Under the pieces are notes generated by a model. That model saw nothing but the letters and a program-made list of their open reading frames with translations, did not search any database and was not told the origin of the DNA. A program made the translations under genes and the position numbers. Of a stretch of DNA of 55,626 nucleotides, positions 223-55,626 are shown piece by piece. The stretch is from the NCBI GenBank assembly GCA_043778825.1, contig JAYWFM010000230.1, positions 1-55,626 on the forward strand, read 5' to 3'. Each line of letters opens with the position of its first letter. The first letter of the stretch is position 1. The DNA is from Planctomycetota bacterium. GTDB taxonomy: Bacteria; Planctomycetota; Planctomycetia; Planctomycetales; Planctomycetaceae.

Positions 223-3200
223 ATGCCATTTGAGAAAGTCGAAACGTCGGTCGATTTCCCCGCTGAGGAGCGCACAATCTTGCAGCTTTGGGACGAATTG
301 CAAGCCTTCGAGAAGCTGCGGGCGAAGAACCAGGGGAAGCCGAAATGGTCGTTTCTCGATGGCCCGATCACCGCGAATAATCCGATGGGCGTGCATCACG
401 CCTGGGGCCGCACTTATAAGGATGCGTATCAGCGCTACTTCGCGATGACCGGGCATGAATTGCGTTATCAGAACGGTTTCGATTGCCAGGGGCTGTGGGT
501 CGAGGTCGAGGTCGAGAAGCAGCTGAACCTCGGGACGAAGACCGCGATCGCCGAGTACGGGATCGACAAATTCGTGTGGGAGTGCAAGAAGCGCGTGCTG
601 AAGTTCGCCGCCCGCCAGACCGAGCAATCGATCCGGCTCGGCTACTGGATGGAGTGGGACGACCCGGCTCAACTGCGCGGACTGGCTTCAGCGATTGGAA
701 CAGAGCAGCAGATCACGCTGACGACCCCCAAGGGCGTCGTCGCCACCGGCACAGCGGAGCAACTCGTCGAGCAACTCGGCAACCCGGTGTGGGGCGGCAG
801 CTACTTCACGTTCAGCACCGAGAACAACGAGACGATCTGGTCGTTCCTGAAGAAGTGCCACCAGCGCGGCAAGATCTACCGAGGCCACGACGTGATGCCC
901 TGGAGCGGCCGCGCGGGGAGTGCGTACTCGCAGATGGAGATCGCGGATGGACGGAAGCTGACCACGCACCGTAGTTGCTTTGTGCGTTTCCCACTGCTGC
1001 GGGATAGTAGCGTGGGCTTTAGCCCACGCGTTGGGGAAGACAACGACTCGGCGTGGGCTAAAGCCCACGCTACGAACGAGTATCTCCTCGTCTGGACGAC
1101 CACGCCGTGGACCCTCACTTCTAACGTCGCCGCTGCGATCAACCCCGACCTCGACTACGTGAAGCTGAAAGCGAAAAAAGACGGCGCGGTCTACTACTTC
1201 GCGAAAGACAACCTCGAATTCAAACGCTTGGAGAAGGAGTTCAAGGAAGGGTTCGGTCGACCCGAGTGGGCCTGGCCGAAGGACTGCCCCAAGCTGAAGA
1301 CGATCGCCCAGATCTTCAAGGAGAGCGGCGGGTACGAGGTCGTGGGGGAGCCGATCAAGGGAGCCGAGATGGTCGGCTGGCGGTATGCCGGGCCGTTTGA
1401 TGACTTTGCGGCTCAGACAGAGAAACATCCATCGCATCACAACCCTGCAAAGGCAGTTTTCGATATCGATGCAATCGTGTCGAATCTGAAAATCAAGGGG
1501 AACACTTTTGCTGAACTTGCAGGTGAATCATGCCAGGAACGAATGGAATTTATGACGCTAGTCGTGTTGCTGCGATCCGCGTCTGCAGATGTCTTAAACT
1601 CTCAGTTGGCTCAAGATCAAAGAGCAGCCCTCTTGAATTTGGGGCAGTTTGATGAGGCTCGACTGGTCGGAAACCTCGCTGAGGCAGAAGGTTTGTTTCA
1701 GCATGAAAGCTCTACAACGATTACTGATCCGATCGTTGTTGCACAACTGCATGGTCTCCTGAACTTCAATCAACCGAAGCAGTCTGTCGACGCTGGAGAT
1801 CTGAGATATGCGATTCGTAAGACTCTGATTGAACTTCACACGTGCCTGAAATTGTTTTTGCAATCATCTCAGTCGAGTGTCGAGTGCCATCGCGTGGTGG
1901 ACGGCGGTCGCGACTTCAAAGGCACGCCGATGGTCACAGCCGGTGACGGCACCGGGATTGTGCATATTGCTCCGGGTTGCGGTGATGTGGACCATACGCT
2001 TGGCAAGAATCTGGGGCTGGCGATCATTGCCCCATTGGGCGAGGACGCGAACTTTGGCGAAGGCTTCGGCCCTTTCACAGGTCGAAATGCCACGGACCCG
2101 AAGACCGCCGACCTCGTGTTCGAGCTGATGAAGGCCAACGGTTTCTTGGTCTACGTCGAGACCTACCCCCACATCTACCCGCACTGCTGGCGGACGGGGG
2201 ATGAGCTGATCTTTCGGCTGGTGGATGAGTGGTTCATCAACATGGATTGGCGGGAGGAGATCAAGGAGGTCACGCGGGCGATTACGTGGCTGCCGGACTC
2301 GATCCAGGGGCAGGAGCGCGAGGTCGAGTGGCTGAGCCTGATGCGGGACTGGATGATCTCGAAGAAGCGGTTCTGGGGTCTGGCCCTGCCGATCTGGGTG
2401 AACCCCGCAGACCCGACCGACTTCGATGTGATGGGATCGCTGGCTGAGCTGAAGGAGCGCGCGGTCGAGGGGTGGGACGAGTTCGAGGGTCACACGCCGC
2501 ACCGTCCGTGGATCGACAAGGTGAAGATCCAGAGCCTGAAAACCGGCGCGATCCTGACCCGTGTCGAAGATGTCGGCAACCCGTGGCTCGATGCCGGGAT
2601 CGTGCCGTTCTCGACGCTGAACTACAACGGGCGCTACCCCGAATCGGCTCTCAAGTGGGAGGACTGGTTCCCGGCGGAACTTGTCACCGAATGCTTCCCC
2701 GGCCAGTTCCGCAACTGGTTTTACTCGCTGCTGAGTCTGGCCACGATGATGGGGTGGGAAGAGGGGGAGGGAGGCCTAGAGCCTATGGCCCAGGGCCTAG
2801 GGCCAGACGCCGTGGAGCAGACATTCCTGTCTGCATCTTCCGTCGATCAACCATCAACCATCAACCATCAACCCTCTTCTCCGGCCCTAGGCTCTAGGCC
2901 CTCGCCCCTAGGCCTCTCCAAACGCCCCTTCAAAACTCTCCTCGGCCATCGCCTCGTCATGAACGAGGACGGCAAGCCGATGCACAAGTCGGACGGGACC
3001 GCGATCTGGTTCGAAGAGGCTGCGGAACAACTCGGTGTCGATACGCTGCGGTGGTTGTATCTGGCTCAGAATCCGGCGCAGGATCTGCGGTTCGGGACAA
3101 GGCATGGGAAGGAGCCGGTCACGTTGCAAACCGTGGACGGCCCGATTTCGCAGACGCTTGAGGGACTCGCGACTTGCAAGGTCACGAGTACCCCTGCCGA

Positions 3201-4485
3201 CGAAGTCCGCCGTCAAGTCCTGATCCCGCTGTGGAACAGCTACTCGTTCTTCGTGAACTACGCGATCCTCGACGGGTTCGATCCGACGCTGGATGCAGTG
3301 CCGGTCAGCGAACGTCCGGAGATCGATCGCTGGATTCTGTCGAACCTCAACGTACTCATCGGCACCTGCCGCACCGAGTTCGAGAACTTCAACAGCCCCG
3401 GCGTGACGCAAGCGGCAGCGGCGTTCGTGGATGACTTGTCGAACTGGTACATCCGCCGGAATCGGAAAAGGTTCTGGAAGGCGAGGGAAGAGCGAGCCCC
3501 CGACGTAAGTCGGGGGAGTGGCTGGGACGTGGACAAGTTGGCGGCGTACCAAACGCTGTACGAGGTGTTGGTCACGCTGACAAAACTCCTGGCACCGTGC
3601 ATCCCGTTCGTCACCGAGCGGATGTTCCAGAATCTCGTCGTGGGCCACGAAAGCCCAGGGGTTGCAACCCCTGGGCTTGCGCGATCAGTGCATCTGGAGT
3701 CGTATCCCACCGTCGACGATTCTCTCATCGACGCCTCCCTCAACCACCGCATGGCTCTCGCCCAACGGATCGTCAAGATGGGGCATCGGCTCCGCGAAGA
3801 GGCCAACCAGCGCGTCCGGCAGCCGCTGGCCGAACTCAAGTACGCCTGTGCCAATCCGCAGGAGTCCGCCGAGATCGCCGCCCTCGCCGAGGTCATCGCC
3901 GACGAACTCAACGTCAAGTCGATCACCCCCGCCGACAACCTCGATGCCCTCGTCCACTACAGCTACAAACCGAACCTGAAGACCCTCGGGAAGAAGCTCG
4001 GCAAGCTGTTGGGGGCGGTCAAGGAGGCACTGACGACGGTCGACGCTGCCACTCTCGCGCCGCTGCGAAAGGGTGAGTCCGTAACCCTGACCATCGCTGG
4101 TGAGCCGGTGACTCTGGCCCCGGAAGACGTACTCATCAGCACCGAGCAAGCCAGCGACTGGGCCTGTGCCGATGACTCCGGCATCCAGATCGCCCTCTCC
4201 ACCACGCTCACCCCGCCCCTCGTCCGCGAAGGCATGGCCCGCGACATGATTCGCCAAGTGCAACAACTGCGCAAGGAGCATGACCTGAAAGAGAACGACC
4301 GGATCGCCATCCGCTGGTCGGCTGCGGCTGGCGTGGCGGAGTTCGAGACGATGGTCGCCGAATGGCAGGAGTCGATCCTGACGGAGACGCGAGCCGACCG
4401 CATCGAACAACGAGCGGTGGCCGACGGCAAACCCGTCCAAATCGGCGAGGTGGAGGTGCAGTTGAGCATTAAGAAGCTGGGATGA
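223..4485 (+). CDS. ileS: Isoleucine--tRNA ligase (type-2 IleRS), 1420 aa, lengthened by several in-frame insertions
   Basis: The ORF is uninterrupted. It has the N-terminal [20 protein letters not shown] (HIGH region), the editing-domain motifs [11 protein letters not shown] and [12 protein letters not shown], the KMSKS-like GKPMHKSDG, and RRNRKRFW in the anticodon-binding part. Confidence 0.93.
1007..1072. repeat. Class A REP-like double hairpin (GTAG-CGTGGGC-TTTA-GCCCACGC ... GCGTGGGC-TAAA-GCCCACG-CTAC), copy 1, 66 bp, in frame inside ileS
   Basis: Near-identical arms recur at 10147-10213 and 43553-43618. Each arm is itself a hairpin, and the two arms are inverted relative to each other. 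In ileS the element translates as [22 protein letters not shown]. Confidence 0.9.
1411..1885 (+). other. AT-rich in-frame insertion in the ileS editing-domain region (about 150 extra codons); boundaries approximate
   Basis: GC drops visibly by eye (about 45% against about 60% in the flanks). The block separates ...RYAGPFDDF from ...HRVVDGG...[12 protein letters not shown], which are adjacent segments in canonical IleRS. There is no stop codon despite the AT richness. Confidence 0.65.
2755..2925 (+). repeat. Palindrome-rich in-frame insertion in ileS: CCTAGG-cored short inverted repeats plus a (CAACCAT)x3 heptamer
   Basis: GGCCTAGAGCC at 2773 pairs with GGCTCTAGGCC at 2890. GGGCCTAGGGCC at 2793 pairs with GGCCCTAGGC at 2882. 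AAGAGGG at 2759 pairs with CCCTCTT at 2872. There is a central hairpin GCAGACATTCCTGTCTGC. The block translates as [17 protein letters not shown]...[29 protein letters not shown], between the conserved [12 protein letters not shown] and [15 protein letters not shown]. Confidence 0.75.
3497..3516. repeat. Perfect 8-bp stem hairpin with a GTAA loop (CCCCCGAC-GTAA-GTCGGGGG) inside ileS
   Basis: Read directly from the sequence. It encodes the extra residues APDVSRG after the conserved RRNRKRFW. Confidence 0.6.
3651..3678. repeat. Perfect 28-bp palindrome AAGCCCAGGGGTTG/CAACCCCTGGGCTT inside ileS
   Basis: The sequence equals its own reverse complement. It encodes SPGVATPGL just before the conserved SVHLESYP. 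Confidence 0.8.
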
Positions 4486-8004: not shown

Positions 8005-8131
8005 CCGAGGGATTGTCTCGGCGGAGGACCGGTTTCTCAACCGCTCGCCAGAGTCGTCAGGCCGATGCCGCAAGCCAGCCGGACGGCGTCAGCCCCGTGG
8101 CACTTATTTCATGGGCACTGGCACTGGCATT

Positions 8132-8180
8132 GTCGCCTTTTTCTCCGAAAAAGGACGTTCTTTTTCGGAGAAAAAGACGA
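8132..8180. repeat. Class B palindromic element (GTCGCC-TTTTTCTCCGAAAAAGG...CTTTTTCGGAGAAAAAG-ACGAC), copy 1
   Basis: It has the same architecture as the copies at 18697, 20038, 47418, 48977 and 55581. Confidence 0.85.
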
Positions 8181-8240
8181 CCGTCGATGACTACTGACCG
8201 GGCAATTCGTGCCACGGAGGAGTCAGCCGCAACGCTCACC

Positions 8241-10031: not shown

Positions 10032-10146
10032 GGTCTCTCCACCTGTGTCGCAGTGAGCCGGGTCTGCGATCCGGGTCATGAGAGTGGATACGCCGTTCCT
10101 TCAGCGAGTGTTGGAACCGAGAATGACGTTTTCCAGAGAAGACGAA

Positions 10147-10213
10147 GTAGCGTGGGCTTTAGCCCACGCATCCTGGAAGATAACGCTCCCGCGTGGGCTA
10201 AAGCCCACGCTAC
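10147..10213. repeat. Class A REP-like double hairpin, copy 2 (intergenic, 67 bp)
   Basis: GTAGCGTGGGCTTTAGCCCACGC...GCGTGGGCTAAAGCCCACGCTAC. Confidence 0.9.
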
Positions 10214-10255
10214 AGGGACTATTGTTGGACACCTCATGATTCAATTTGGCGAGTC

Positions 10256-11734: not shown

Positions 11735-11867
11735 AACGGACTCTCCCCACGAGCGGACGACCCAGCGCCGACCTGGGGGGCATCATATCAACGGCAGCGA
11801 GTCCGTGGCAGCGGAGGGGTAACTGCTGCCCGTGGGTTCGCACTATCACTCGGTCAAGGCTTGATTT

Positions 11868-11929
11868 GGGGGTTGGAGTCCAGCCTTTAGGCTGCTCCGG
11901 AGCAGGCTAAAGCCTGAACTCCAACCCCC
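11868..11929. repeat. Class D palindromic element (GGTTGGAGTCCAGCCTTTAGGCTGCTCCGGAGCAGGCTAAAGCCTGAACTCCAACC), copy 1
   Basis: Copies lie at 29253 (half element), 44571 and 54926. Confidence 0.88.
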
Positions 11930-11950
11930 ATTCTGAGTCCTGACAAGGCA

Positions 11951-13142: not shown

Positions 13143-13168
13143 CGTAGAACGGAATTCATTCCGTTCTC
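13143..13168. repeat. Class E REP-like hairpin (GTAG-AACGGAAT-TC-ATTCCGTT-C), monomer
   Basis: Related dimers lie at 36775-36836 and 38111-38169. Confidence 0.8.
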
Positions 13169-13211
13169 TTCACGCCCCAGCGGTCGGTCGGTCCCGGATC
13201 AGTCGGGAGCC

Positions 13212-18600: not shown

Positions 18601-18696
18601 GAGGAATCCAGTCAGATTGGCGAGCCCCCGGTGTGAGCCGGGGTGTCCGAGGAATCAGGTGACAAGCAATGGCTTAGCATCGTTCGAGAAACAAGA

Positions 18697-18746
18697 GTCG
18701 TCTTTCGCTCCGCGAAAGACCGGCCTTTCGCGGAGCGAAAGGCGAC
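18697..18746. repeat. Class B palindromic element, copy 2
   Basis: GTCGTCTTTCGCTCCGCGAAAGACCGGCCTTTCGCGGAGCGAAAGGCGAC. Confidence 0.88.
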
Positions 18747-18823
18747 AATCAGTCAGTTATTCCTCGAACGATCCTTACACTCTCTGGCGGGAACACCCCG
18801 GCTGACGCCGGGGGCTCGCTGGA

Positions 18824-19924: not shown

Positions 19925-20037
19925 GGTGGGGAGGGGGCGAAGGGAGGAGGGGGGAGGGGAGGAGGGGAGGAGGGACAGAGGCTTATGATGGCGGGCGAGA
20001 GGCGGGGTGACAATCGAAGGGGTGGGCCGCTCACTGT

Positions 20038-20087
20038 GTCGCCTTTTGCTCCGCAAAAGAGCGTCCTTTTTCGGAGAAAAAGGCGAC
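20038..20087. repeat. Class B palindromic element, copy 3
   Basis: GTCGCCTTTTGCTCCGCAAAAGAGCGTCCTTTTTCGGAGAAAAAGGCGAC. It is nearly identical to the copy at 48977. Confidence 0.88.
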
Positions 20088-20101
20088 AAACCCCGAGCCG
20101 C

Positions 20102-29222: not shown

Positions 29223-29252
29223 TCGCTCGACATCTCCGGACGGCTCCCCACC

Positions 29253-29281
29253 GTTGGAGTCCAGCCTTTAGGCTGCTCCGG
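29253..29281. repeat. Class D element, half copy
   Basis: GTTGGAGTCCAGCCTTTAGGCTGCTCCGG. The right arm is missing. Confidence 0.75.
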
Positions 29282-29339
29282 TGCTCGGCAACGCACTGTG
29301 TCAAGTGGGGCAACTCTTCCCTGACTGATGACTGAAAAC

Positions 29340-36774: not shown

Positions 36775-36836
36775 CGTAAAACGGAATTCATTCCGTTCCC
36801 GACGAACGTAGAACGGAACTTATTCCGTTTTACACG
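36775..36836. repeat. Class E REP-like dimer (CGTAAAACGGAATTCATTCCGTTCC...CGTAGAACGGAACTTATTCCGTTTTACACG)
   Basis: It starts immediately after the DUF11 gene stop. Confidence 0.85.
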
Positions 36837-38110: not shown

Positions 38111-38169
38111 CGTAGAACGGAATGTATTCCGTTCCCCACTCACAGGAACGGAATGAATTCCGTTCTACG
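38111..38169. repeat. Class E REP-like dimer, heads outward (CGTAGAACGGAATGTATTCCGTTCC...GGAACGGAATGAATTCCGTTCTACG)
   Basis: It lies between convergent genes. Its right head provides the TAG stop of the regulator gene. Confidence 0.88.
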
Positions 38170-39553: not shown

Positions 39554-39592
39554 GAGTGGGGGGCCTCTGGAATGACGTGCTGGGGCGATAAT

Positions 39593-39871
39593 ACCGTAGG
39601 CGATGTCGCTCCGCGACTCGCATTTCGCACACGGGAAGACTCCTTTCCCCATGGCTCCCCTCGTCATACGTGCGGTGTTCGACGGAAGGAGTCTCAGTCG
39701 CGGAGCGACATGAGCTACGTAGGCGATGTCGCTCCGCGACTCGCATTCGTTGGGCCAACAGACTCCGCGAGTGTCGTTCACCACTGGGGGCGGTGAGTTT
39801 TCGGCAGCAAGAATCTCGGTCGCGGAGCGACCGAGCTACGTAGGCGAGTCGCTCCGCGACTCGCATTCGAG
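39593..39871. repeat. Class C REP cluster (one monomer plus two head-to-head dimers) on the 3' side of the RAYT gene
   Basis: The REP unit is GTAG-GCGATGTCGCTCCGCGACTCGCATTC, with the variant GTAG-CTCAGTCGCTCCGCGACTGAGATTC. The monomer is at 39593-39627 and the dimers at 39689-39749 and 39811-39871. Confidence 0.9.
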
Positions 39872-39878
39872 CGACTCT

Positions 39879-40613
39879 CTAATTGGCATTCGAGCCGATC
39901 TCCTCAGTCGGCCTCCTGTAGTACCGGAAACTCCCCAATTTCAGGTGTGCCTTTTCCGGATTCTCTGCAATGTATCGACGGTACTTGTCGTACTCTTCGA
40001 TACTTCGCACGAGATGGTCGAACTGTTCGACTTGCCAGAAAGAACCGGAAGCCTCTCCCTCATTTGCTGCGAGATTCTCTCGCAACCACTTGTTGATCTT
40101 TGTGGCGGTGAAATGCTTCCAGGAAGTGCATTGAGTCATCAATGAGTCTTCCTCTCGAAACGCGACGAGAAGATGTACGTGATTCGGCATCACCACGGCA
40201 TCGGTCAGAACATACCGGTCGCTATCAAAATGCAGCAAGCTGTCCATGACGATTTCCGACAGCGCTGGCTCGCGAAGGACACACGCCCCTGCGGCGGCGT
40301 CCAACTGTTCATCCCAAGCCGTGAAGAGCAACCATTGGAGGTTGCCACGCTCCACAGGCGGCAGCTGGGAGAGTGAGTGTTTCCAGTCGCCTTCGGGATC
40401 AATTTGATGTTGTTTGAGAATCTGATGCCGCTGTCGACTGAGCCGAACAAGGGCCTCTCTGGGGAGCGAATCTGCTGTCCGCCAAGTAATGAAGGCGACT
40501 GTTCCCGCTTGTGCCCAGTGGGGCAACCGCTTCCACGCGATCGTATAGTCCTGCTTCGAATCGAAGAACTGCAATCCGGTCGGAATCCTATCGAAAGAGT
40601 CTTGACCAGACAT
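39879..40613 (-). CDS. REP-associated tyrosine transposase (RAYT; IS200/IS605 Y1 HUH transposase family)
   Basis: It has the HUH motif in VVMPNHVHLLVAF and the C-terminal SFWQVEQFDHLVRSIEEYDKYRRYIAENPEKAHL, matching the RAYT pattern FWQxRFWEHxIR..DY..H..YI..NP. It is flanked on both sides by REPs. ATG 40613 was chosen because the upstream ORF is REP DNA. Confidence 0.85.
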   Translation of the reverse strand: MSGQDSFDRIPTGLQFFDSKQDYTIAWKRLPHWAQAGTVAFITWRTADSLPREALVRLSRQRHQILKQHQIDPEGDWKHSLSQLPPVERGNLQWLLFTAWDEQLDAAAGACVLREPALSEIVMDSLLHFDSDRYVLTDAVVMPNHVHLLVAFREEDSLMTQCTSWKHFTATKINKWLRENLAANEGEASGSFWQVEQFDHLVRSIEEYDKYRRYIAENPEKAHLKLGSFRYYRRPTEEIGSNAN

Positions 40614-40647
40614 GCCGACACTCCGAGTCGGGAGTATTGGGACGGGC

Positions 40648-40800
40648 GGAATGCGAGTCGCGGAGCGACATCGCCTACGTAGCTCAGTCGCTCCGCGACT
40701 GAGATTCCTTCCGTAAGTCATCTGTCGAATCCAGAAGGAAGCCTCTGTGAATCCGCCTTCCCACGCACGGAATGCGAGTCGCGGAGCGACATCGCCTACG
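40648..40800. repeat. Class C REP cluster (one dimer 40648-40708 plus one monomer 40769-40800) on the 5' side of the RAYT gene
   Basis: GGAATGCGAGTCGCGGAGCGACATCGCCTACGTAGCTCAGTCGCTCCGCGACTGAGATTCC. The monomer overlaps the gltA stop codon. Confidence 0.9.
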
Positions 40801-42082
40801 AACGGTTGCTGATCGGCACGAAGTCGCGGGCTCCGTGGCCGGTGTAGATCTGGCGCGGACGGGCGATCTTTTGTTCGCTGTCTTCCAGCAACTCCGCCCA
40901 CTGGGCCAGCCAGCCGACCGTGCGGGGGATCGCGAACAGAACCGGGAACATCGTCTCCGGCAGGCCCATTGCCTGGTAGATCAGGCCCGAGTAGAAGTCG
41001 ACGTTCGGGTAGAGCTTGCGCTTGATGAAGTACTCGTCGTTGAGGGCGATCTTCTCCAACTCCAGGGCAATCTCGAGCAGCGGATTGCGGCCCGTCACAG
41101 CGAACACCTCATCGGCGGTCCGCTTGATGATCTTGGCCCGTGGGTCGTAATTCTTGTAAACCCGGTGGCCGAACCCCATCAGCCGGCACTTGCCAGTCTT
41201 GACCTGCTCGATGAAGGCCGGCACGTTCTTCACGTGGCCAATCTCGGCCAGCATCTTGAGGACCGCCTCGTTCGCCCCGCCATGCAACGGGCCATACAGT
41301 GCCGCCGCCGCTCCCGCCAGAGCACTATACGGATCGGCCTCGGAAGACCCGATCGCCCGCATGGCATTGGTCGAGCAGTTCTGCTCGTGGTCGGCATGCA
41401 GGATGAACAGAATGTCGAGGGCCTTGGCCAGCACCGGGTGCGGCTCGTGCGTCGCGTCCATCATCTTGAACATCATCGACAGAAAGTTGCCGGTGTAGCT
41501 CAGCTTGTTGTTCGGGTAGTTGTAGGGATACCCCTGGCAATGCCGGTACGAGAACGCCGCAATCGTCGGAGCCTTGGCAATCAGGCGGCAAATCTGCTTG
41601 TTCCGCGAGGCCGGGTCGCGGACGTTCTTGGCCTCGGGGTAGAAGGTCGACAACCCCGCCACCGTGCTGATGAACATCCCCATCGGATGGGCGTCGTAAC
41701 GAAACCCCTCCATCAGATGCTTGACGTTCTCATGCACGACCGTGTGTCGCTGGATCGACTGCTCCCAGTCCTGCAACTGGTCGCAATTCGGCAACTCCCC
41801 GTTCAGCAGCAGGTAGGCCGTCTCCAGAAACGTGCTGTGCTCGGCGAGCTGCTCGATCGGGTAGCCCCGGTAGCGAAGGATGCCGACATCGCCGTCGATT
41901 TCGGTGATACTGCTGCGAGTCGAGGCGGTGTTGAGGAACCCCGGGTCGTAGCTCATCATCCCGAATTCGGCGTCGGTCACTTTGATCTGCCGCAGATCCG
42001 CGGCGCGGATGGTCCCGTCCGTAATCGGGAGGGTGTAGGTTTTCCCGGTTCGGTTGTCGGTGACTGTCAGAGTGTCCGCCAT
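40796..42082 (-). CDS. gltA: Citrate synthase (type II)
   Basis: It has GFGHRVYKNYDPRA, LHADHEQNCSTN and GPLHGGANE. ATG 42082 is preceded by AGGAAAGG; an in-frame GTG lies at 42106. Confidence 0.92.
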   Translation of the reverse strand: MADTLTVTDNRTGKTYTLPITDGTIRAADLRQIKVTDAEFGMMSYDPGFLNTASTRSSITEIDGDVGILRYRGYPIEQLAEHSTFLETAYLLLNGELPNCDQLQDWEQSIQRHTVVHENVKHLMEGFRYDAHPMGMFISTVAGLSTFYPEAKNVRDPASRNKQICRLIAKAPTIAAFSYRHCQGYPYNYPNNKLSYTGNFLSMMFKMMDATHEPHPVLAKALDILFILHADHEQNCSTNAMRAIGSSEADPYSALAGAAAALYGPLHGGANEAVLKMLAEIGHVKNVPAFIEQVKTGKCRLMGFGHRVYKNYDPRAKIIKRTADEVFAVTGRNPLLEIALELEKIALNDEYFIKRKLYPNVDFYSGLIYQAMGLPETMFPVLFAIPRTVGWLAQWAELLEDSEQKIARPRQIYTGHGARDFVPISNRS

Positions 42083-42318
42083 CACTTGCCTTTCCTGCGT
42101 CTGCACGATGCGAGACTGTTCGATTCGCGGAACAGCCTGCCTTTTTCGAAGTGATGAGATTATGCGATCCCCGCCAGTGTTGCCACTTCGGGCACGGAAT
42201 CTTGATCGTCGGATTTGAGACTCGGGCGTCTCGCTGTCAGAATGCAGTTTCGACCCAGTGACCTCCCGTGATCTGTCGATCGCGGGAACCCGGCTGGGAT
42301 GGGGAGCAGAGGACGCCG

Positions 42319-43527
42319 ATGGCCCGTATTGTCTCCCTGTCGATCCTGTCGACGCTGATCGTCATTCTGGGGCTGACGTTCTTTCGCGTCCTGGCCCCGT
42401 TTGTGATGCCGCTGTTTCTGGCCGGGGTGACGACGCTGCTGGTCCAGCCGTGGTTTCAGAAGCTGATCGTGCGGCTCAAGGGGCGGGTGAATCTCGCCGC
42501 CGGACTGTTATCGGTGGGCATCCTGCTGGCGATTCTGGTCCCCCTGACAGTGGGGATTCTGCTCGCCTCGCTGGAACTGTACACGATCGCCCACACGGTG
42601 ACGGATGAGGCGTTCCTGAAGCAGGCGGGGACGACGGTCAGCGTCCAGTCGGAAGAGTTACTCGACCGATCGGTGAAGTTCGCCAACGGATACCTGCCCT
42701 CCGATCAACAGGCCAGCAAGGAAGCCGTCCGGACGCAGATCCGCGAGAAACTCCGTGACTCGCTCACCGAAATCGGCGATCGCTCGCTCGGGCCGACCGT
42801 CTCCACCTCGTTCAGCATCGCGGGGCGACTGCTCTCCACCACCGCCATGCTGTTGATCGGTCTGACGATCTACCTCATCGCGCTGTACTACTTTTTGGCC
42901 GATGGCCCCGCGCTGCTGGCCGCCGCCGAGCAGTTGATCCCGGTGCATGTCGACTACCAGCGGGAACTGCTCAGCGAGTTTGCCAAGGCGGTCCGCAGCG
43001 TGGTCCTGGCCACGTTCATGGCGGCGATTGCACAGGGGATCGCGACGACGGTAGCCCTAGAGATGTTCGGGTTCGGTCATCTGTTCGCGATCCTCATCCT
43101 ATCGACGATCTTCTCGCTGATCCCACTGGCGGGGGCGTGGCTCGTGTGGGCTCCATTTGCAATCGGTCTGTTCGCCAATGGACACTGGATCCAAGGGTTG
43201 GTACTGACCAGCTACGGCATCGTGGTGGTCGGCTTGCTCGACAACGTGGTGCGGGCGTATGTCCTCAATACGGATACCAAGCTGCATCCCTTGCTGGCGC
43301 TGGTGAGCGTGTTGGGCGGGATTCAGACGCTGGGGTTGTGGGGCGTGTTCATCGGGCCGATCGTGGCGTCGTGTCTGTATGCCCTGGTCCGCATTTTCAA
43401 CACCGAGCTGTTCGCGTTGTCGCGGGAGCGGTTGGGGGTGGGAGACGGCACGATCCTGGGGCCGGGGGTTCCCGTTCCGGGCGCAGCGACCTCACCGAGT
43501 ACACCCTCTACGGGAAGTCAGACATGA
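42319..43527 (+). CDS. AI-2E family transporter (PerM/YhhT-like permease)
   Basis: It is a multi-TM protein with the typical N-terminus LTFFRVLAPFVMPLFLAGVTTLL and the motif PLLALVSVLGGIQTLGLWGVFIGP. Confidence 0.85.
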   Translation: MARIVSLSILSTLIVILGLTFFRVLAPFVMPLFLAGVTTLLVQPWFQKLIVRLKGRVNLAAGLLSVGILLAILVPLTVGILLASLELYTIAHTVTDEAFLKQAGTTVSVQSEELLDRSVKFANGYLPSDQQASKEAVRTQIREKLRDSLTEIGDRSLGPTVSTSFSIAGRLLSTTAMLLIGLTIYLIALYYFLADGPALLAAAEQLIPVHVDYQRELLSEFAKAVRSVVLATFMAAIAQGIATTVALEMFGFGHLFAILILSTIFSLIPLAGAWLVWAPFAIGLFANGHWIQGLVLTSYGIVVVGLLDNVVRAYVLNTDTKLHPLLALVSVLGGIQTLGLWGVFIGPIVASCLYALVRIFNTELFALSRERLGVGDGTILGPGVPVPGAATSPSTPSTGSQT

Positions 43528-44471
43528 TCGACGTGACAGACGAATCTCTCCGTAGCGTGGGCTTTAGCCCACGCAAGAGTGTTCTCGTCCACAACTCGTG
43601 GGCTAAAGCCCACGCTACGCGCACGTGGAATCGTTCGTCCCGACTGGCACTGTTGCTCCTGCTCCTGTTCGCAGCTTCCCACACGGCGTTCGCTCAAGAC
43701 CCGCCAGCCGAGGACACCGCTCCTACGGAGGCCCCCGCCGACCCCGTGGTCAACATCACCGACAAGTGGACAATCCTCGTCCATCCGGGCCGACCCCGAC
43801 CCGGCATCGTCGAGTTCACCGACAAGTCACCCATCCAGAATGTCACCGAGTTCAAACTCCTTGGGCCGTCCGTGGGGCATCCCTTCTGCCTCGGGGAGTT
43901 CATCGTCAATGGCCGCTGGGCCACCGCGCAAGGGGTGGTCCAGGTCGTCGAGGGCACCAACACACTCCTCTCCCTGGCCACAGCCGACCAGTTCGAACTG
44001 GAGGGGATCATCCACCAGGAAGGTTCGGGAGGCTGGCTGATGCTGCTGGGTTGGAACCAGGGTCACGGCTATTCGTTGTCGAACGTCTCTCTCATCAAAA
44101 GCGGGTCTCCGTGGTTCGTGTGCGAGTACCGAGCCGCCGAGGCGATCGCCCTCACCAATAACGAGGTCAAGCAGTTTGACTGGAAGGGCGATCAACCGTT
44201 TCGCATGATCGTCAAAGACAAGCTGTTGTCGGTGACAGTCGGCCAGACCGCGATCGTCGAGGAGTACCCGCTGGACAACTACACTGCCGGTCAGATTTTT
44301 CTGGGGACGTACGACACGCGGCTGAGTGCCCGTCCGGTGAAGGTGAAATCCCTGCGCATCCGAGCCCTGGTGGACAAACCGGGAAAGGCCGAGAAGCCCA
44401 AGCAGGCGGCCCCCCCCGCTAAACAGGGAGAGGCGAAACCCAAACCCAAACCCAAACCCGCAGTACCGTAA
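43524..44471 (+). CDS. Secreted hypothetical protein, possibly a concanavalin-A-like/DUF1080-like jelly roll, with a Lys/Pro-rich tail
   Basis: The ATG overlaps the transporter stop (ATGA). It has a signal peptide (RLALLLLLLFAASHTAFA). The FELEG...GGWLMLLGW...GQIFLGTY...VKVKSLRI pattern resembles DUF1080-type domains only weakly. The true start may lie downstream of the repeat. Confidence 0.7.
   Translation: MIDVTDESLRSVGFSPRKSVLVHNSWAKAHATRTWNRSSRLALLLLLLFAASHTAFAQDPPAEDTAPTEAPADPVVNITDKWTILVHPGRPRPGIVEFTDKSPIQNVTEFKLLGPSVGHPFCLGEFIVNGRWATAQGVVQVVEGTNTLLSLATADQFELEGIIHQEGSGGWLMLLGWNQGHGYSLSNVSLIKSGSPWFVCEYRAAEAIALTNNEVKQFDWKGDQPFRMIVKDKLLSVTVGQTAIVEEYPLDNYTAGQIFLGTYDTRLSARPVKVKSLRIRALVDKPGKAEKPKQAAPPAKQGEAKPKPKPKPAVP
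43553..43618. repeat. Class A REP-like double hairpin, copy 3 (66 bp), inside the 5' end of the next ORF
   Basis: GTAGCGTGGGCTTTAGCCCACGC...GTGGGCTAAAGCCCACGCTAC. Confidence 0.9.
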
Positions 44472-44570
44472 GCCTTCCCACAACCGCGTTTCTCTCGGTC
44501 CCAAGCTCCGCTTGGGAACGCCTATCCCCGAAGCTCCGCTTCGCCTCGCGGGCCCAACACTACCTAACCG

Positions 44571-44632
44571 TGGGAGTCCAGCCTTGAGGCTGCTGCTGCG
44601 GGCGGGAGCAGGCTCAAGCCTGAACTCCAACG
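44571..44632. repeat. Class D palindromic element, copy 3 (divergent)
   Basis: TGGGAGTCCAGCCTTGAGGCTGCTGCTGCGGGCGGGAGCAGGCTCAAGCCTGAACTCCAACG. Confidence 0.8.
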
Positions 44633-45575: not shown

Positions 45576-45648
45576 AGCGGGCGAAGGGATTCGAACCCTC
45601 GACATACAGCTTGGGAAGCTGTCACTCTACCAACTGAGTTACGCCCGC
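45576..45648 (-). tRNA. tRNA-Gly (anticodon CCC)
   Basis: The reverse complement GCGGGCGTAACTCAGTTGGTAGAGTGACAGCTTCCCAAGCTGTATGTCGAGGGTTCGAATCCCTTCGCCCGCT folds as a cloverleaf. The acceptor stem is GCGGGCG/CGCCCGC, the anticodon loop is TTCCCAA, and the T-loop is TTCGAAT. No CCA is encoded. Confidence 0.93.
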
Positions 45649-46695: not shown

Positions 46696-47415
46696 ATGCC
46701 CCTGACCACCGCACGATTACTGGATCTCGAAGAAGCCGGGTTGTGGCCCGACTTTCATTCGAAGTTTATCAACTATTGGCAAGAATCCCTCGCTGAATCG
46801 CTCCCTCGTGAGTACGAGGCTCGGGTGGGAGAGCAGGTCAACTTGTACGAGTACGAGGAGCCGATCCGAAGGTTCGGACCGGATGTCGCCGTACTCGTCA
46901 GACCGGGGGAGTCACCTTTCCGACGCGCTGCGTCCACAACTCATGACTCCGGCGGCGTGGCCCTCCTCGAACCAGTCACAGTCCCTTTAGCGGAGATTCA
47001 CGAAGAGGTCCGCCAACCGTTTCTGGAGATCATTCATCGGCCCGATCGGTCGTTGGTGACTGTACTCGAGTTGCTCTCCCCGTCCCACAAAGCGGAGCCG
47101 GGTCGGGCGCGGTATCTGGCCAAGCGGCGGTCGCTGCTGGAGTCCCCGGTGCATCTCGTGGAACTCGATCTGCTGCAAGGAGGCAGGCGTCTGCCGTTCG
47201 GGGCTCCACTGCCCGTGGGGGACTTCTATTGCATGATCTCGCGGTTGGAATTGCGGTATGACTGCTTGGTCTATGCCGGGCGATACGGCGAGGCATTCCC
47301 CCACTGGCCGGTCCCGTTGCGGGCTCCCGATCCCGATGTGAGCCTCGACTACCAAGCCTTATTTGAGTTGACGTTCACCCGTGGGCGCTACGAGCGCAGC
47401 CTGGAACGGGGCTGA
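46696..47415 (+). CDS. DUF4058 family protein
   Basis: WPDFHSKFINYWQESLAESLPREYEARVGEQV, FLEIIHRPDRSLVTVLELLSPSHK and VHLVELDLLQGGRRLP match the DUF4058 pattern. The ATG is preceded by GGAGGA. Confidence 0.85.
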   Translation: MPLTTARLLDLEEAGLWPDFHSKFINYWQESLAESLPREYEARVGEQVNLYEYEEPIRRFGPDVAVLVRPGESPFRRAASTTHDSGGVALLEPVTVPLAEIHEEVRQPFLEIIHRPDRSLVTVLELLSPSHKAEPGRARYLAKRRSLLESPVHLVELDLLQGGRRLPFGAPLPVGDFYCMISRLELRYDCLVYAGRYGEAFPHWPVPLRAPDPDVSLDYQALFELTFTRGRYERSLERG

Positions 47416-47417
47416 GT

Positions 47418-47466
47418 GCGTCTTTCGCTCCGCGAAAGAACGTCCTTTCGCGGAGCGAATGGCGAC
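47418..47466. repeat. Class B palindromic element, copy 4 (between convergent genes)
   Basis: GCGTCTTTCGCTCCGCGAAAGAACGTCCTTTCGCGGAGCGAATGGCGAC. Confidence 0.88.
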
Positions 47467-47479
47467 ACTCGGAGCCCCC

Positions 47480-48903: not shown

Positions 48904-48976
48904 GGTTGCTGTCGACCACGGTACCTATGATGCCCTCTACTGGTCGCGGGATCGCTCGTCTCATGGCACTCACATT

Positions 48977-49026
48977 GTCGCCTTTTGCTCCGCAAAAGAG
49001 CGTCCTTTTTCGGAGAAAAAGGCGAC
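48977..49026. repeat. Class B palindromic element, copy 5 (between divergent genes)
   Basis: It is nearly identical to the copy at 20038-20087. Confidence 0.88.
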
Positions 49027-49068
49027 AATCGCCGACTGCACTACACCCCTCCGAAAGACTCCCCGCTC

Positions 49069-54784: not shown

Positions 54785-55044
54785 TGTCCCGTCAGGGACA
54801 CCCGATAATAGCCCACCGATTCATCGGTGGGTCCACGGAACTCCTCACGGCCCCAGCCCCGGCAGGGGCGACAGAAAACGCCGCACACGCCCCAAGCCAC
54901 TGCCTTGTCAACGCTCGGTTTTGGGTGTTGGAGTCCAGCCTTTAGGCTGCTCCGGAGCAGGCTAAAGCCTGAACTCCAACCCCGCTTCTGAGTTGCGTCC
55001 CACCGTTGAAACGGTGGGCTATTATCGGGTGTCCCTGGCGGGAC
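54785..55044. repeat. Composite palindromic structure: class H element (54785-54833), class D element (54926-54984), inverted class H element (54997-55044)
   Basis: H is GTCCC-GTCA-GGGAC + ACCCGATAATAGC + CCACCGAT-TCA-TCGGTGG. The right copy is its inverted counterpart GTCCCACCGTTGAAACGGTGGGCTATTATCGGGTGTCCCTGGCGGGAC. Confidence 0.85.
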
Positions 55045-55472: not shown

Positions 55473-55580
55473 GCGGGGGCTCCTGAGTTGCCCTGCATTC
55501 TACCACGGGGGAATGGCAAGATCATCCGGTGGCTGAAAATGCTCCGCTTCGAAGACTCCGCGTCGCAGCTCAACGGGAGA

Positions 55581-55626
55581 GTCGCCTTTCGCTCCGCGAA
55601 AGGCCGGTCTTTCGCGGAGCGAAAGA
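55581..55626. repeat. Class B palindromic element, copy 6 (truncated by the window end)
   Basis: GTCGCCTTTCGCTCCGCGAAAGGCCGGTCTTTCGCGGAGCGAAAGA. Confidence 0.85.

What the first reader, a model, noticed from the sequence alone, without database searches (positions are those of the whole stretch)
1007..1072. REP-type double hairpin (class A) inserted in frame in the editing domain of the essential ileS gene
A 66-bp element (GTAG head + CGTGGGC/GCCCACG hairpin, spacer, inverted copy) adds exactly 22 codons ([22 protein letters not shown]) just before the conserved WTTTPWTL editing motif, with no stop or frameshift. The same element occurs at 10147-10213 (intergenic, 67 bp) and at 43553-43618 (66 bp, again within an ORF). 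The closest established precedent is the Rickettsia palindromic elements (RPEs), which insert in frame into protein genes. A GTAG-headed REP doing this in an aminoacyl-tRNA synthetase of a planctomycete is not something I know to be described.
Basis: partly seen in the sequence, partly recalled or inferred. Interest (0 to 1): 0.7.

Follow-up and report, generated by a model that had tools for sequence, protein, structure and literature searches.

The report
Mobile palindrome inside an essential gene
A 67-base mobile palindromic repeat sits in frame inside the isoleucyl-tRNA synthetase gene of a planctomycete and adds a 22-residue surface loop; such insertions are already known in other bacteria, but here the same loop is a recurrent landing site for many repeat families.

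Summary
A GTAG-headed REP doublet (23-nt arm, 21-nt spacer, inverted 23-nt arm) lies at 1007-1073. It is 67 nt, not 66. It sits inside an intact 1420-codon ileS ORF and reads [22 protein letters not shown]. Identical-armed copies are at 10147-10213 and 43552-43618.

Orthologues with a minimal 4-residue turn (29 of the 120 closest) show a net gain of 22 residues. The gain is at the tip of the beta-hairpin before the WTTTPWT editing motif. An independent assembly of a diverged relative carries the identical insert.

The element family occurs in at least 9 Planctomycetota MAGs. About a quarter of 50 doublets lie in frame inside housekeeping genes (murD, murE, uvrA, a UvrD-like helicase three times, cobA-hemD, mnmE).

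The best explanation is a REPIN-like non-autonomous element tolerated in a permissive surface loop. No cognate RAYT was found.

It is not unprecedented. Di Nocera et al. 2013 catalogued intragenic GTAG/CGTC REP dimers, including a 22-residue dimer in Erythrobacter IleRS.

What seems new is the hot spot. 83 of the 120 closest IleRS orthologues carry unrelated inserts, many palindromic, at this same loop. This gene also holds two more in-frame palindromes.

Verdict: new member of a known kind, moderate interest.

The parts
1007..1029 (+). Left REP arm of the class A doublet: GTAG head plus a 9-bp stem (GCGTGGGCT/AGCCCACGC)
   Evidence: Sequence read; exact pattern match, 6 arms against 0 expected
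1030..1050 (+). 21-nt spacer (GTTGGGGAAGACAACGACTCG), encoding VGEDNDS. It matches the family spacer consensus in forward orientation
   Evidence: A 21-nt spacer is found in 32 of 50 doublets, and its columns are moderately conserved
1051..1073 (+). Right REP arm, the exact reverse complement of the left arm
1007..1073 (+). Whole 67-nt REP doublet (REPIN-like), translated in frame as (S)[22 protein letters not shown] within IleRS residues 262-284
   Evidence: The identical 67 nt and junctions occur in an independent ENA assembly (L068)
223..4485 (+). Host gene ileS (isoleucyl-tRNA synthetase, 1420 aa), intact. The insert lies between the strand FVRFPLL and the strand [12 protein letters not shown] of the CP1 editing domain
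   Evidence: Pfam tRNA-synt_1, Anticodon_1 and DUF5915. NCBIfam ileS is the best model. Best PDB hits are IleRS, with a 22-residue gap at the insert. AF2 model
10147..10213 (.). Second class A doublet (67 nt, perfect arms), intergenic, with additional outer inverted flanks (10123-10237)
   Evidence: (I23)
43552..43618 (.). Third class A doublet (67 nt, 1 mismatch). It lies between the stop of ORF 42268-43527 and the signal peptide of the downstream ORF, so it is in a 5' leader or an N-terminal extension

Best explanation
The 67-nt sequence is one copy of a dispersed, non-autonomous REP doublet (REPIN-like): two GTAG-headed 23-nt REPs in inverted orientation around a 21-nt spacer. It became fixed inside ileS, at the tip of a surface beta-hairpin of the CP1 editing domain just upstream of the threonine-rich WTTTPWT motif.

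Shown:
- The ORF stays open and in frame, with a net gain of 22 codons relative to the minimal turn.
- Flanking codons are under purifying selection.
- The same filled allele exists in a diverged relative.
- The family has many copies in related genomes, about a quarter of them in frame inside housekeeping genes.
- Two of the three reading frames of the element are stop-free in either orientation. The closed frame carries TAG in the GTAG head and TAA in the right-arm loop.

Inferred:
- The element was mobilised in trans as a single-stranded hairpin by a RAYT-type Y1 transposase, or it was imported with flanking DNA by homologous recombination from a relative.
- Insertions elsewhere in ileS, or in the stop-containing phase, were purged by selection.
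- The 22 residues are translated as a flexible, functionally neutral loop.
- The loop is a structurally permissive site, which explains why many different repeats have accumulated there in other lineages.
For: Element and repeat family:
- 6 arms against 0 expected.
- 50 doublets: 32 of 67 nt and 10 of 69 nt.

In-frame copies in other genes, confirmed by Pfam and by GC at each codon position:
- MurD, MurE, UvrA, a UvrD/PD-(D/E)XK helicase (3 copies), CobA-HemD, MnmE and a spermidine-synthase-like membrane protein (2 copies).

Clean indel:
- P0006 and 28 other orthologues have a 4-residue turn (DHPN, DRES or DRDN) where the window has 26 residues.
- The HMMER alignment to solved IleRS2 8c9d places a 22-residue gap opposite the insert.

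Loop location (AF2 model):
- Strand 247-258, then the insert with pLDDT below 50 at residues 264-274, then strand 286-292.

Retention and selection:
- L068 (P0002, 88% identical overall) has the identical 67 nt and junctions, while nearby synonymous sites differ.
- Amino-acid differences are far fewer than third-position differences along the gene.

Transposase:
- A RAYT-like gene exists in the window (PF01797 at 23.6 bits; NF047646 at 56.6 bits), so this genome has that machinery.

Hot spot:
- 83 of 120 orthologues have at least 8 extra residues at this loop.
- Several of these inserts are palindromic at the DNA level, with z from -5.5 to -7.7, or match other dispersed repeats.
Against: - No RAYT flanked by class A REPs was found. 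The window's RAYT-like gene is flanked by a different REP class, and tblastn and motif scans of the 67 class A loci found none.
- The modal element length (67 nt) is not a multiple of three, so a simple cut-and-paste of 67 nt would shift the frame. The exact junction event could not be reconstructed. Net gains at three other filled-versus-empty comparisons were +21 and +27 residues and one unclear.
- Translation of the insert is not demonstrated (no proteomics).
- Uniqueness of this ileS in the source genome is untested.
- The AF2 model is only moderate (mean pLDDT 69).
Confidence: 0.8

Rival explanations
1. The filled allele did not arise by transposition in this genome. It was acquired by homologous recombination of an ileS segment from a related population that already carried the element.
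For: ileS is strongly mosaic among relatives. Third-position divergence in 50-codon windows ranges from 0% to about 70% against P0002. Identity breakpoints fall next to the insert: 6-11% divergence upstream against 24-41% just downstream, in comparisons with P0002, P0003 and P0005. The 67 nt and its junctions are 100% identical in L068. The first ~40 residues of the window's IleRS differ from all close relatives.
Against: This explains how the allele spread, not how it originated. An original insertion is still required. Class A copies are present elsewhere in this window, so the family is resident in this genome.
Confidence: 0.3
2. The insert has been domesticated. Either the 22-residue loop modulates editing or tRNA handling, or the -52 kcal/mol mRNA hairpin controls ileS translation or mRNA decay.
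For: The insert lies 4 residues from the editing motif. The arms are perfectly conserved in two diverged alleles. The hairpin is very stable. In-frame copies use the [15 protein letters not shown] frame far more often than the other open frame, about 12 to 1.
Against: The closest orthologues lack the insert or carry unrelated sequences at the same loop. The same peptide occurs in unrelated enzymes. The AF2 model gives it low confidence. Older copies in the helicase decay by mutation and deletion. There is no Rfam match.
Confidence: 0.08
3. This ileS copy is a decaying or non-essential paralogue that tolerates junk insertions, and a second ileS does the work.
For: The gene carries at least five lineage-specific inserts. 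It scores below NCBIfam's ileS cut-off, 571.5 against 621.4 bits.
Against: The ORF is intact over 1420 codons. The HxGH-type motif (MGVHHAWGR), KMSKS-type motif (KPMHKSDG) and editing motif ([19 protein letters not shown]) are invariant or nearly invariant across the ten aligned orthologues. Amino-acid divergence is far below synonymous-site divergence. All 120 closest homologues have the same architecture, and many carry inserts.
Confidence: 0.05
4. The insert is an assembly artefact: a repeat-induced chimera in a metagenome assembly.
For: Relatives come from metagenome assemblies, where repeats cause misjoins. The gene is mosaic.
Against: The same in-frame junctions are found in at least two other assemblies: P0001 (98% identical) and P0002/L068 from ERZ27314285. 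A misjoin would rarely preserve the frame and the orthologous flanks on both sides.
Confidence: 0.02

Closest known systems
Intragenic GTAG/CGTC-tagged REPs (Di Nocera, De Gregorio & Rocco 2013, BMC Genomics 14:522, PMC3733652), in particular the CGTC-1 dimer in Erythrobacter litoralis isoleucyl-tRNA synthetase ELI_13550 (residues 467-488, 22 aa)
   Same: A tagged REP dimer inserted in frame in a housekeeping gene and encoding about 22 residues. The host-gene spectrum is the same (uvrA, UvrD-type helicases, tRNA synthetases). GTAG REPs are reported in the PVC superphylum, including Planctomycetes.
   Different: The REP sequence family is different (GTAG head, GCGTGGGCT stem). The phylum and the position in IleRS differ: the CP1 beta-hairpin at about residue 260, against residues 467-488. 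In that paper the planctomycete (R. baltica) intragenic cases shown in the supplement passages read here are in hypothetical proteins. The recurrent occupation of one loop by many repeat families is not described there.
REPINs mobilised by RAYTs (Bertels & Rainey 2011, PMC3116915; PMC3337134)
   Same: Two REPs in inverted orientation around a short spacer, forming a long hairpin. The copies are dispersed and multi-copy. There is a GTAG head. A RAYT-like gene is present in the same window.
   Different: No cognate RAYT flanked by class A REPs was found. REPINs are described as essentially extragenic, whereas about a quarter of these copies are intragenic and translated in frame. Some intergenic copies carry extra outer inverted flanks.
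Rickettsia palindromic elements (RPE; Ogata et al. 2000, as cited in PMC3733652)
   Same: Palindromic repeats inserted in frame into genes for functional proteins. They add short peptide segments at permissive sites and also occur intergenically.
   Different: The sequence is unrelated. The host is a free-living planctomycete with a large genome, not an obligate intracellular alphaproteobacterium. RPE-1 elements are longer (about 100-150 bp). This is an analogy of behaviour, not family membership.
Intragenic bacterial MITEs (enterobacterial RU elements, Delihas 2007, PMC2759123; Coxiella MITEs, PMC5896051)
   Same: Small non-autonomous repeats with open frames, found inside genes and contributing peptide segments.
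   Different: Those are TIR-type MITEs of 100-170 bp or more. This is a 67-nt REP doublet with a GTAG tag.

Membership tests
GTAG-tagged REP / REPIN | Terminal GTAG tetranucleotide next to a short G+C-rich stem-loop of 20-40 nt | tested here: met
   GTAG plus GCGTGGGCT-TT-AGCCCACGC, 23 nt, in all 6 arms
GTAG-tagged REP / REPIN | [quoted passage not shown] | tested here: met
   23 + 21 + 23 nt. 50 doublets, of which 32 are 67 nt. The MFE structure is a single hairpin with z = -10.1
GTAG-tagged REP / REPIN | Many dispersed copies per genome, mostly extragenic | tested here: inconclusive
   There are 3 copies in this 55.6-kb window. At least 67 loci occur in at least 9 related MAGs, with the scan truncated. 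About three quarters of doublets are extragenic. The copy number in the source genome itself is unknown.
GTAG-tagged REP / REPIN | A cognate RAYT (Y1/HUH transposase) gene flanked by the same REPs | tested here: inconclusive
   A RAYT-like gene lies at 39879-40613 (-) (PF01797 at 23.6 bits; NF047646 at 56.6 bits, below its cut-off of 80). It is flanked by a different GTAG REP class. None was found in the 67 class A loci. The whole genome was not available.
Rickettsia palindromic elements (RPE) | Sequence membership in the RPE-1 to RPE-n families of Rickettsia | not tested
   No RPE sequences were compared. The host is a planctomycete and the element is GTAG-tagged. It is treated as an analogue only.
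Rickettsia palindromic elements (RPE) | In-frame insertion in genes of functional proteins, at surface-exposed sites | tested here: met
   In-frame copies in IleRS, MurD, MurE, UvrA, a helicase, CobA-HemD and MnmE. The IleRS insert is at a beta-hairpin tip.
Isoleucyl-tRNA synthetase (host gene) | Class I aaRS catalytic domain with CP1 editing domain (WTTTPWT motif), anticodon-binding domain, and IleRS as best match | tested here: met
   Pfam PF00133, PF08264 and PF19302. TIGR00392 ileS is by far the best NCBIfam model (571.5 bits; valS 258.9), although it falls below the curated cut-off of 621.4 because inserts split the match. Best PDB hits are IleRS 8c8w and 1ile. Homologues are annotated isoleucyl-tRNA synthetase.

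The most novel reading that the evidence does not exclude
In Planctomycetaceae, several dispersed repeat families (REP doublets, longer palindromes, TIR-type elements and microsatellites) may repeatedly land in, flip within, decay in and vanish from the same few surface loops of essential enzymes. Under this reading the CP1 beta-hairpin of IleRS is a recurrent landing pad. It is occupied in about 70% of the 120 closest lineages by at least six unrelated insert types, and its state changes among alleles whose flanks are 97% identical. Repeat-derived peptides, and the recombination breakpoints next to them, would then be a major and ongoing source of protein-length variation in this phylum. That would go beyond the scattered intragenic REPs catalogued so far.
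Probability: 0.35. Interest if true: 0.6.

Novelty: new member of a known kind. Interest (0 to 1): 0.4.

Why it matters
- It shows that an essential translation enzyme tolerates a selfish palindrome four residues from its proofreading motif.
- It extends the RPE and intragenic-REP phenomenon to free-living Planctomycetota from cold freshwater metagenomes.
- It points to a natural map of permissive loops in IleRS, and in MurD, MurE, UvrA and other enzymes. Such a map could guide protein engineering.
- It matters for annotation. These inserts split profile matches: NCBI names these proteins only 'class I tRNA ligase family protein', and the ileS model falls below its cut-off.
- If the hot-spot turnover is real, it offers a tractable system for three questions: how REP-type elements choose or survive in targets, whether they excise precisely, and whether they seed recombination breakpoints.

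Tried and rejected
1. Census of proteins carrying the REP-encoded peptide in the 5.8-billion-protein database. A duplicated 48-column profile returned only 7 short ORFs at E <= 1 from 557 candidates, so nothing was learned about host proteins.
2. Search for the cognate RAYT. A HUH/Y-motif regex and a tblastn with the window's RAYT-like protein against all fetched loci found only the window's own gene.
3. Metagenome scan for ileS loci. Most of the 80 loci were distant IleRS with the minimal loop. Only L072, L077 and L120 added inserts.
4. Exact size of the insertion event (66 against 67 nt). No empty allele with identical flanks was found. Helicase orthologues gave net gains of +21 and +27 residues and decayed half-elements, so no constant value emerged.
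5. Rfam search at gathering thresholds found only a tRNA, and nothing on the element.
6. I considered whether the 22 residues could be an ancestral loop from which the repeat derived. I rejected this because the closest orthologues lack them and the repeat is mostly intergenic in several genomes.
Full report
**1. Observation**

Window 1007-1073 reads GTAGCGTGGGCTTTAGCCCACGC / GTTGGGGAAGACAACGACTCG / GCGTGGGCTAAAGCCCACGCTAC. The two 23-nt arms are exact reverse complements. Each arm is a GTAG-headed stem-loop with a 9-bp stem.

The arm occurs six times in the window, as three doublets at 1007-1073, 10147-10213 and 43552-43618. None is expected in 100 dinucleotide shuffles. The 67-mer folds as one long hairpin: -51.9 kcal/mol as RNA (z = -10.1) and -32.2 kcal/mol as DNA (z = -9.4).

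**2. Host gene**

ORF 223-4485 (+) encodes 1420 residues without interruption.
- Pfam finds tRNA-synt_1, Anticodon_1 and DUF5915.
- The best NCBIfam model is ileS (571.5 bits against 258.9 for valS). It falls below the curated cut-off because the match is split into five stretches.
- The best solved relatives are IleRS 8c8w, 8c9d and 1ile.
- The 120 closest database proteins are Planctomycetaceae IleRS of 1180-1620 residues.

The element is read as [22 protein letters not shown], four residues before [10 protein letters not shown].

**3. Is it an insertion?**

Twenty-nine of the 120 closest orthologues have a four-residue turn (DHPN, DRES, DRDN and similar) between FVRFPL[LI] and [12 protein letters not shown]. 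The window has 26 residues there, a net gain of 22. HMMER's alignment to the solved IleRS2 8c9d ([21 protein letters not shown]) opens a 22-residue gap opposite the insert.

At the DNA level, the 84%-identical empty allele L069 reads ATC GAT CAC CCC AAC. The window reads CGG GAT A[67 nt]G AAC. This implies an ancestral CGG GAT ANG AAC with one base shared or lost at a junction. That reconstruction is an inference, because no empty allele with identical flanks was found.

An AlphaFold2 model of residues 150-700 (mean pLDDT 69) gives the following:
- a confident strand at 247-258;
- low confidence across the insert (pLDDT below 50 at 264-274, with a short helix at 277-281);
- a confident strand at 286-292.

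The insert is therefore a loop at the tip of a beta-hairpin of CP1.

**4. Is the filled gene real and functional?**

The same protein segment is present in P0001 (98% identical) and P0002 (88% over the whole alignment). In the P0002 locus (L068, ENA ERZ27314285) the 67 nt and both junctions are identical, while synonymous sites a few codons downstream differ.

Along the gene, amino-acid differences are far fewer than third-position differences. The catalytic and editing motifs are invariant or nearly invariant across the ten aligned orthologues. An assembly artefact or a pseudogene is therefore unlikely. Whether the source genome has a second ileS could not be tested.

**5. The repeat family**

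All came from Planctomycetota MAGs: GFS_12672, GFS_1605, GFS_12863, GLR80, VAR_78, D1_Bin_10, two Schlesneria MAGs and one Pirellulales MAG.

Allowing three mismatches, these loci and the window hold 50 doublets: 32 of 67 nt (21-nt spacer), 10 of 69 nt (23-nt spacer) and a few other lengths. The 21-nt spacer has a recognisable consensus (about GTCCTGGAAGATAACGCTCCC) and occurs in both orientations. Many intergenic copies carry extra outer inverted flanks (ACAAAAGTCCC...GGGACTTTTGT), which the ileS copy lacks.

I used GC content at each codon position and Pfam to separate real coding context from spurious ORFs. About a quarter of the doublets lie in frame inside real genes:
- MurD (L017), MurE (L020) and UvrA (L023);
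- a UvrD/PD-(D/E)XK helicase-nuclease with three copies (L032);
- CobA-HemD (L041) and MnmE (L059);
- a spermidine-synthase-like membrane protein with two copies (L025, with orthologues in L009 and L061).

All but MnmE use the SVGFSPR...AWAKAHAT frame. The element has stops in only one of its three frames: TAG in the head and TAA in the right-arm loop. This holds in either orientation because the arms are palindromic.

Most remaining copies sit just upstream of gene starts. Window copy 3 is of this kind. The frame that runs through it is not coding-like upstream. Its only ATG (43524) overlaps the preceding stop and belongs to the element's outer arm.

**6. Mechanism**

The anatomy is that of a REPIN: a GTAG head, a REP doublet and a long hairpin. 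The window encodes a RAYT-like protein at 39879-40613 (-) (PF01797 at 23.6 bits; NF047646 REP-associated tyrosine transposase at 56.6 bits, below its cut-off). That gene is flanked on both sides by a different GTAG-headed REP class (families D4, D6 and D9). No RAYT was found in the class A loci. Mobilisation by a RAYT is therefore inferred, not shown.

Because 67 is not a multiple of three, the original event cannot be a plain 67-nt paste. Filled-versus-empty comparisons in the helicase gave +21 and +27 residues, plus decayed half-elements in more distant orthologues. Junctions are evidently remodelled afterwards.

ileS is also strongly mosaic among relatives. Third-position divergence ranges from 0 to 70% in 50-codon windows, and identity breaks fall beside the insert. 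The filled allele may therefore have spread by homologous recombination.

**7. A hot spot**

Of the 120 closest IleRS, 83 carry at least 8 extra residues at this same loop, up to +59.

Within the closest clade the upstream 225 nt are about 97% identical among four alleles, yet the loop differs in each:
- class A in the window, P0001 and P0002;
- a 150-nt composite palindrome inserted right after the same CGG GAT in L070;
- a GGCGGAC hairpin plus a TTEARRRG segment in L071.

In L069, a more diverged allele of the same clade, the loop is empty.

DNA was available for nine distinct inserts.
- Four are strongly palindromic: z = -8.6 (class A), -7.7 (L070), -7.6 (L120) and -5.5 (L155).
- Three contain weaker inverted repeats: z from -1.8 to -2.6 (L152, L153, L154).
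- Two are not palindromic, and one of them (L072) is a CAATCCG microsatellite.

The DNA motifs behind the recurrent peptides TEARRHG (16 orthologues) and QPSTIN (5 orthologues) are themselves dispersed repeats in the fetched loci. The former occurs in inverted pairs about 200 nt apart.

The window's ileS also carries two further in-frame palindromes. One is at 2770-2916 (-101.7 kcal/mol for the 225-nt stretch folded around it). The same family sits at site A of L070 and in uvrA of L023. The other is at 3652-3677. There is also a lineage-specific insert of about 160 residues.

**8. Comparison with what is known**

Di Nocera et al. 2013 (PMC3733652) sorted REPs into GTAG and CGTC superfamilies and found them in eight phyla, including Planctomycetes. 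They reported intragenic REPs whose dimers encode 20-30 residues in uvrA, UvrD/REP helicases, recBCD and tRNA synthetases. Their Additional file 3 lists a 22-residue CGTC-1 dimer in Erythrobacter litoralis IleRS.

REPINs and RAYTs (PMC3116915) and Rickettsia RPEs are the other close analogues.

The finding is therefore a new member of a known kind: a new REP family, a new phylum for housekeeping-gene inserts, and a new site in IleRS. I found no description of the recurrent occupation of one loop by many repeat families in the searched literature. That search covers open-access papers only.

**9. Verdict**

The best explanation is a tolerated in-frame REPIN-like insertion in a permissive CP1 loop (confidence about 0.8). 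Interest is moderate (0.4) and comes mainly from the hot-spot pattern.

Noticed in passing
window 39879-40613 (-), with flanking repeats at 39578-39748 and 40641-40801: A RAYT-like gene (PF01797 Y1_Tnp at 23.6 bits; NF047646 REP-associated tyrosine transposase at 56.6 bits, below its cut-off). It is flanked on both sides by GTAG-headed REPs of another class (CGTAGGCGATGTCGCTCCGCGAC). This is a REPtron-type arrangement.
   Followed up: partly
window 2770-2916 (inside ileS, residues ~850-898): A second in-frame palindromic element: GGCCTAGAGCC...GGCCCAGGGCCTAGGGCC arms, an inner hairpin and CATCAACC x4. The 225-nt stretch folded around it gives -101.7 kcal/mol. It encodes [11 protein letters not shown]...[13 protein letters not shown]...[11 protein letters not shown]. 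The same family sits at the CP1 hot spot of a related ileS (L070) and inside uvrA (L023).
   Followed up: partly
window 3652-3677 (inside ileS, residues ~1144-1152): A perfect 26-nt palindrome, AGCCCAGGGGTTGCAACCCCTGGGCT, read in frame as SPGVATPGL, at another loop that varies among orthologues. There is no second copy in the window.
   Followed up: partly
window ~1405-1890 (ileS residues ~395-555): An insert of about 160 residues, present only in the window and P0001. Other close relatives have unrelated inserts of 30-80 residues at the same place. AF2 predicts low-confidence helices. Origin unknown.
   Followed up: no
L009 338-404 versus L025 1975-2041 (orthologous membrane-protein genes of two MAGs): The class A element is at the same codon position in both, but its 21-nt spacer is inverted (16/21 identical when flipped, 8/21 direct). 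This changes 7 residues (VLEDHDY against GIAIIQD). Either the spacer flipped in situ between the perfect arms, or the element was lost and reinserted in the other orientation.
   Followed up: partly
window 223-4485 compared with L068, L070 and L071: ileS is a mosaic. Third-position divergence against close relatives swings between 0% and about 70% in 50-codon windows, and several breaks lie next to repeat inserts. The first ~40 residues of the window's protein differ from all close relatives, including the 98%-identical P0001.
   Followed up: partly
window 43524-43527: An ATGA start/stop overlap between ORF 42268-43527 and the downstream signal-peptide ORF. The ATG lies in the outer arm of the extended class A element. 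Similar ATG-bearing arms precede genes in L035 and L029, so the element may donate start codons or N-terminal extensions.
   Followed up: partly
window 8124-8190, 18689-18755, 20030-20096, 47409-47475, 48969-49035, 55578-55625; 11865-11938, 29250-29288, 44567-44631, 54920-54993; 13143-13171, 36775-36835, 38111-38139: At least three further families of palindromic dispersed repeats (for example GTCGCCTTTCGCTCCGCGAAAG doublets, GGAGTCCAGCCTTTAGGCTGCTCC doublets and CGTAGAACGGAATTCATTCCGTTC). The window is unusually repeat-rich.
   Followed up: no
window 17413 and loci L024, L032, L056, L059: ACGGAGGCACGGAGGCACGGAG, which reads TEARRHG in frame, is a dispersed repeat. It often occurs as inverted pairs about 200 nt apart, like the ends of a MITE. 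The same motif is translated at the IleRS hot spot of 16 orthologues.
   Followed up: partly
window 45576-45648 (-): A tRNA gene (Rfam RF00005, 71.1 bits).
   Followed up: no
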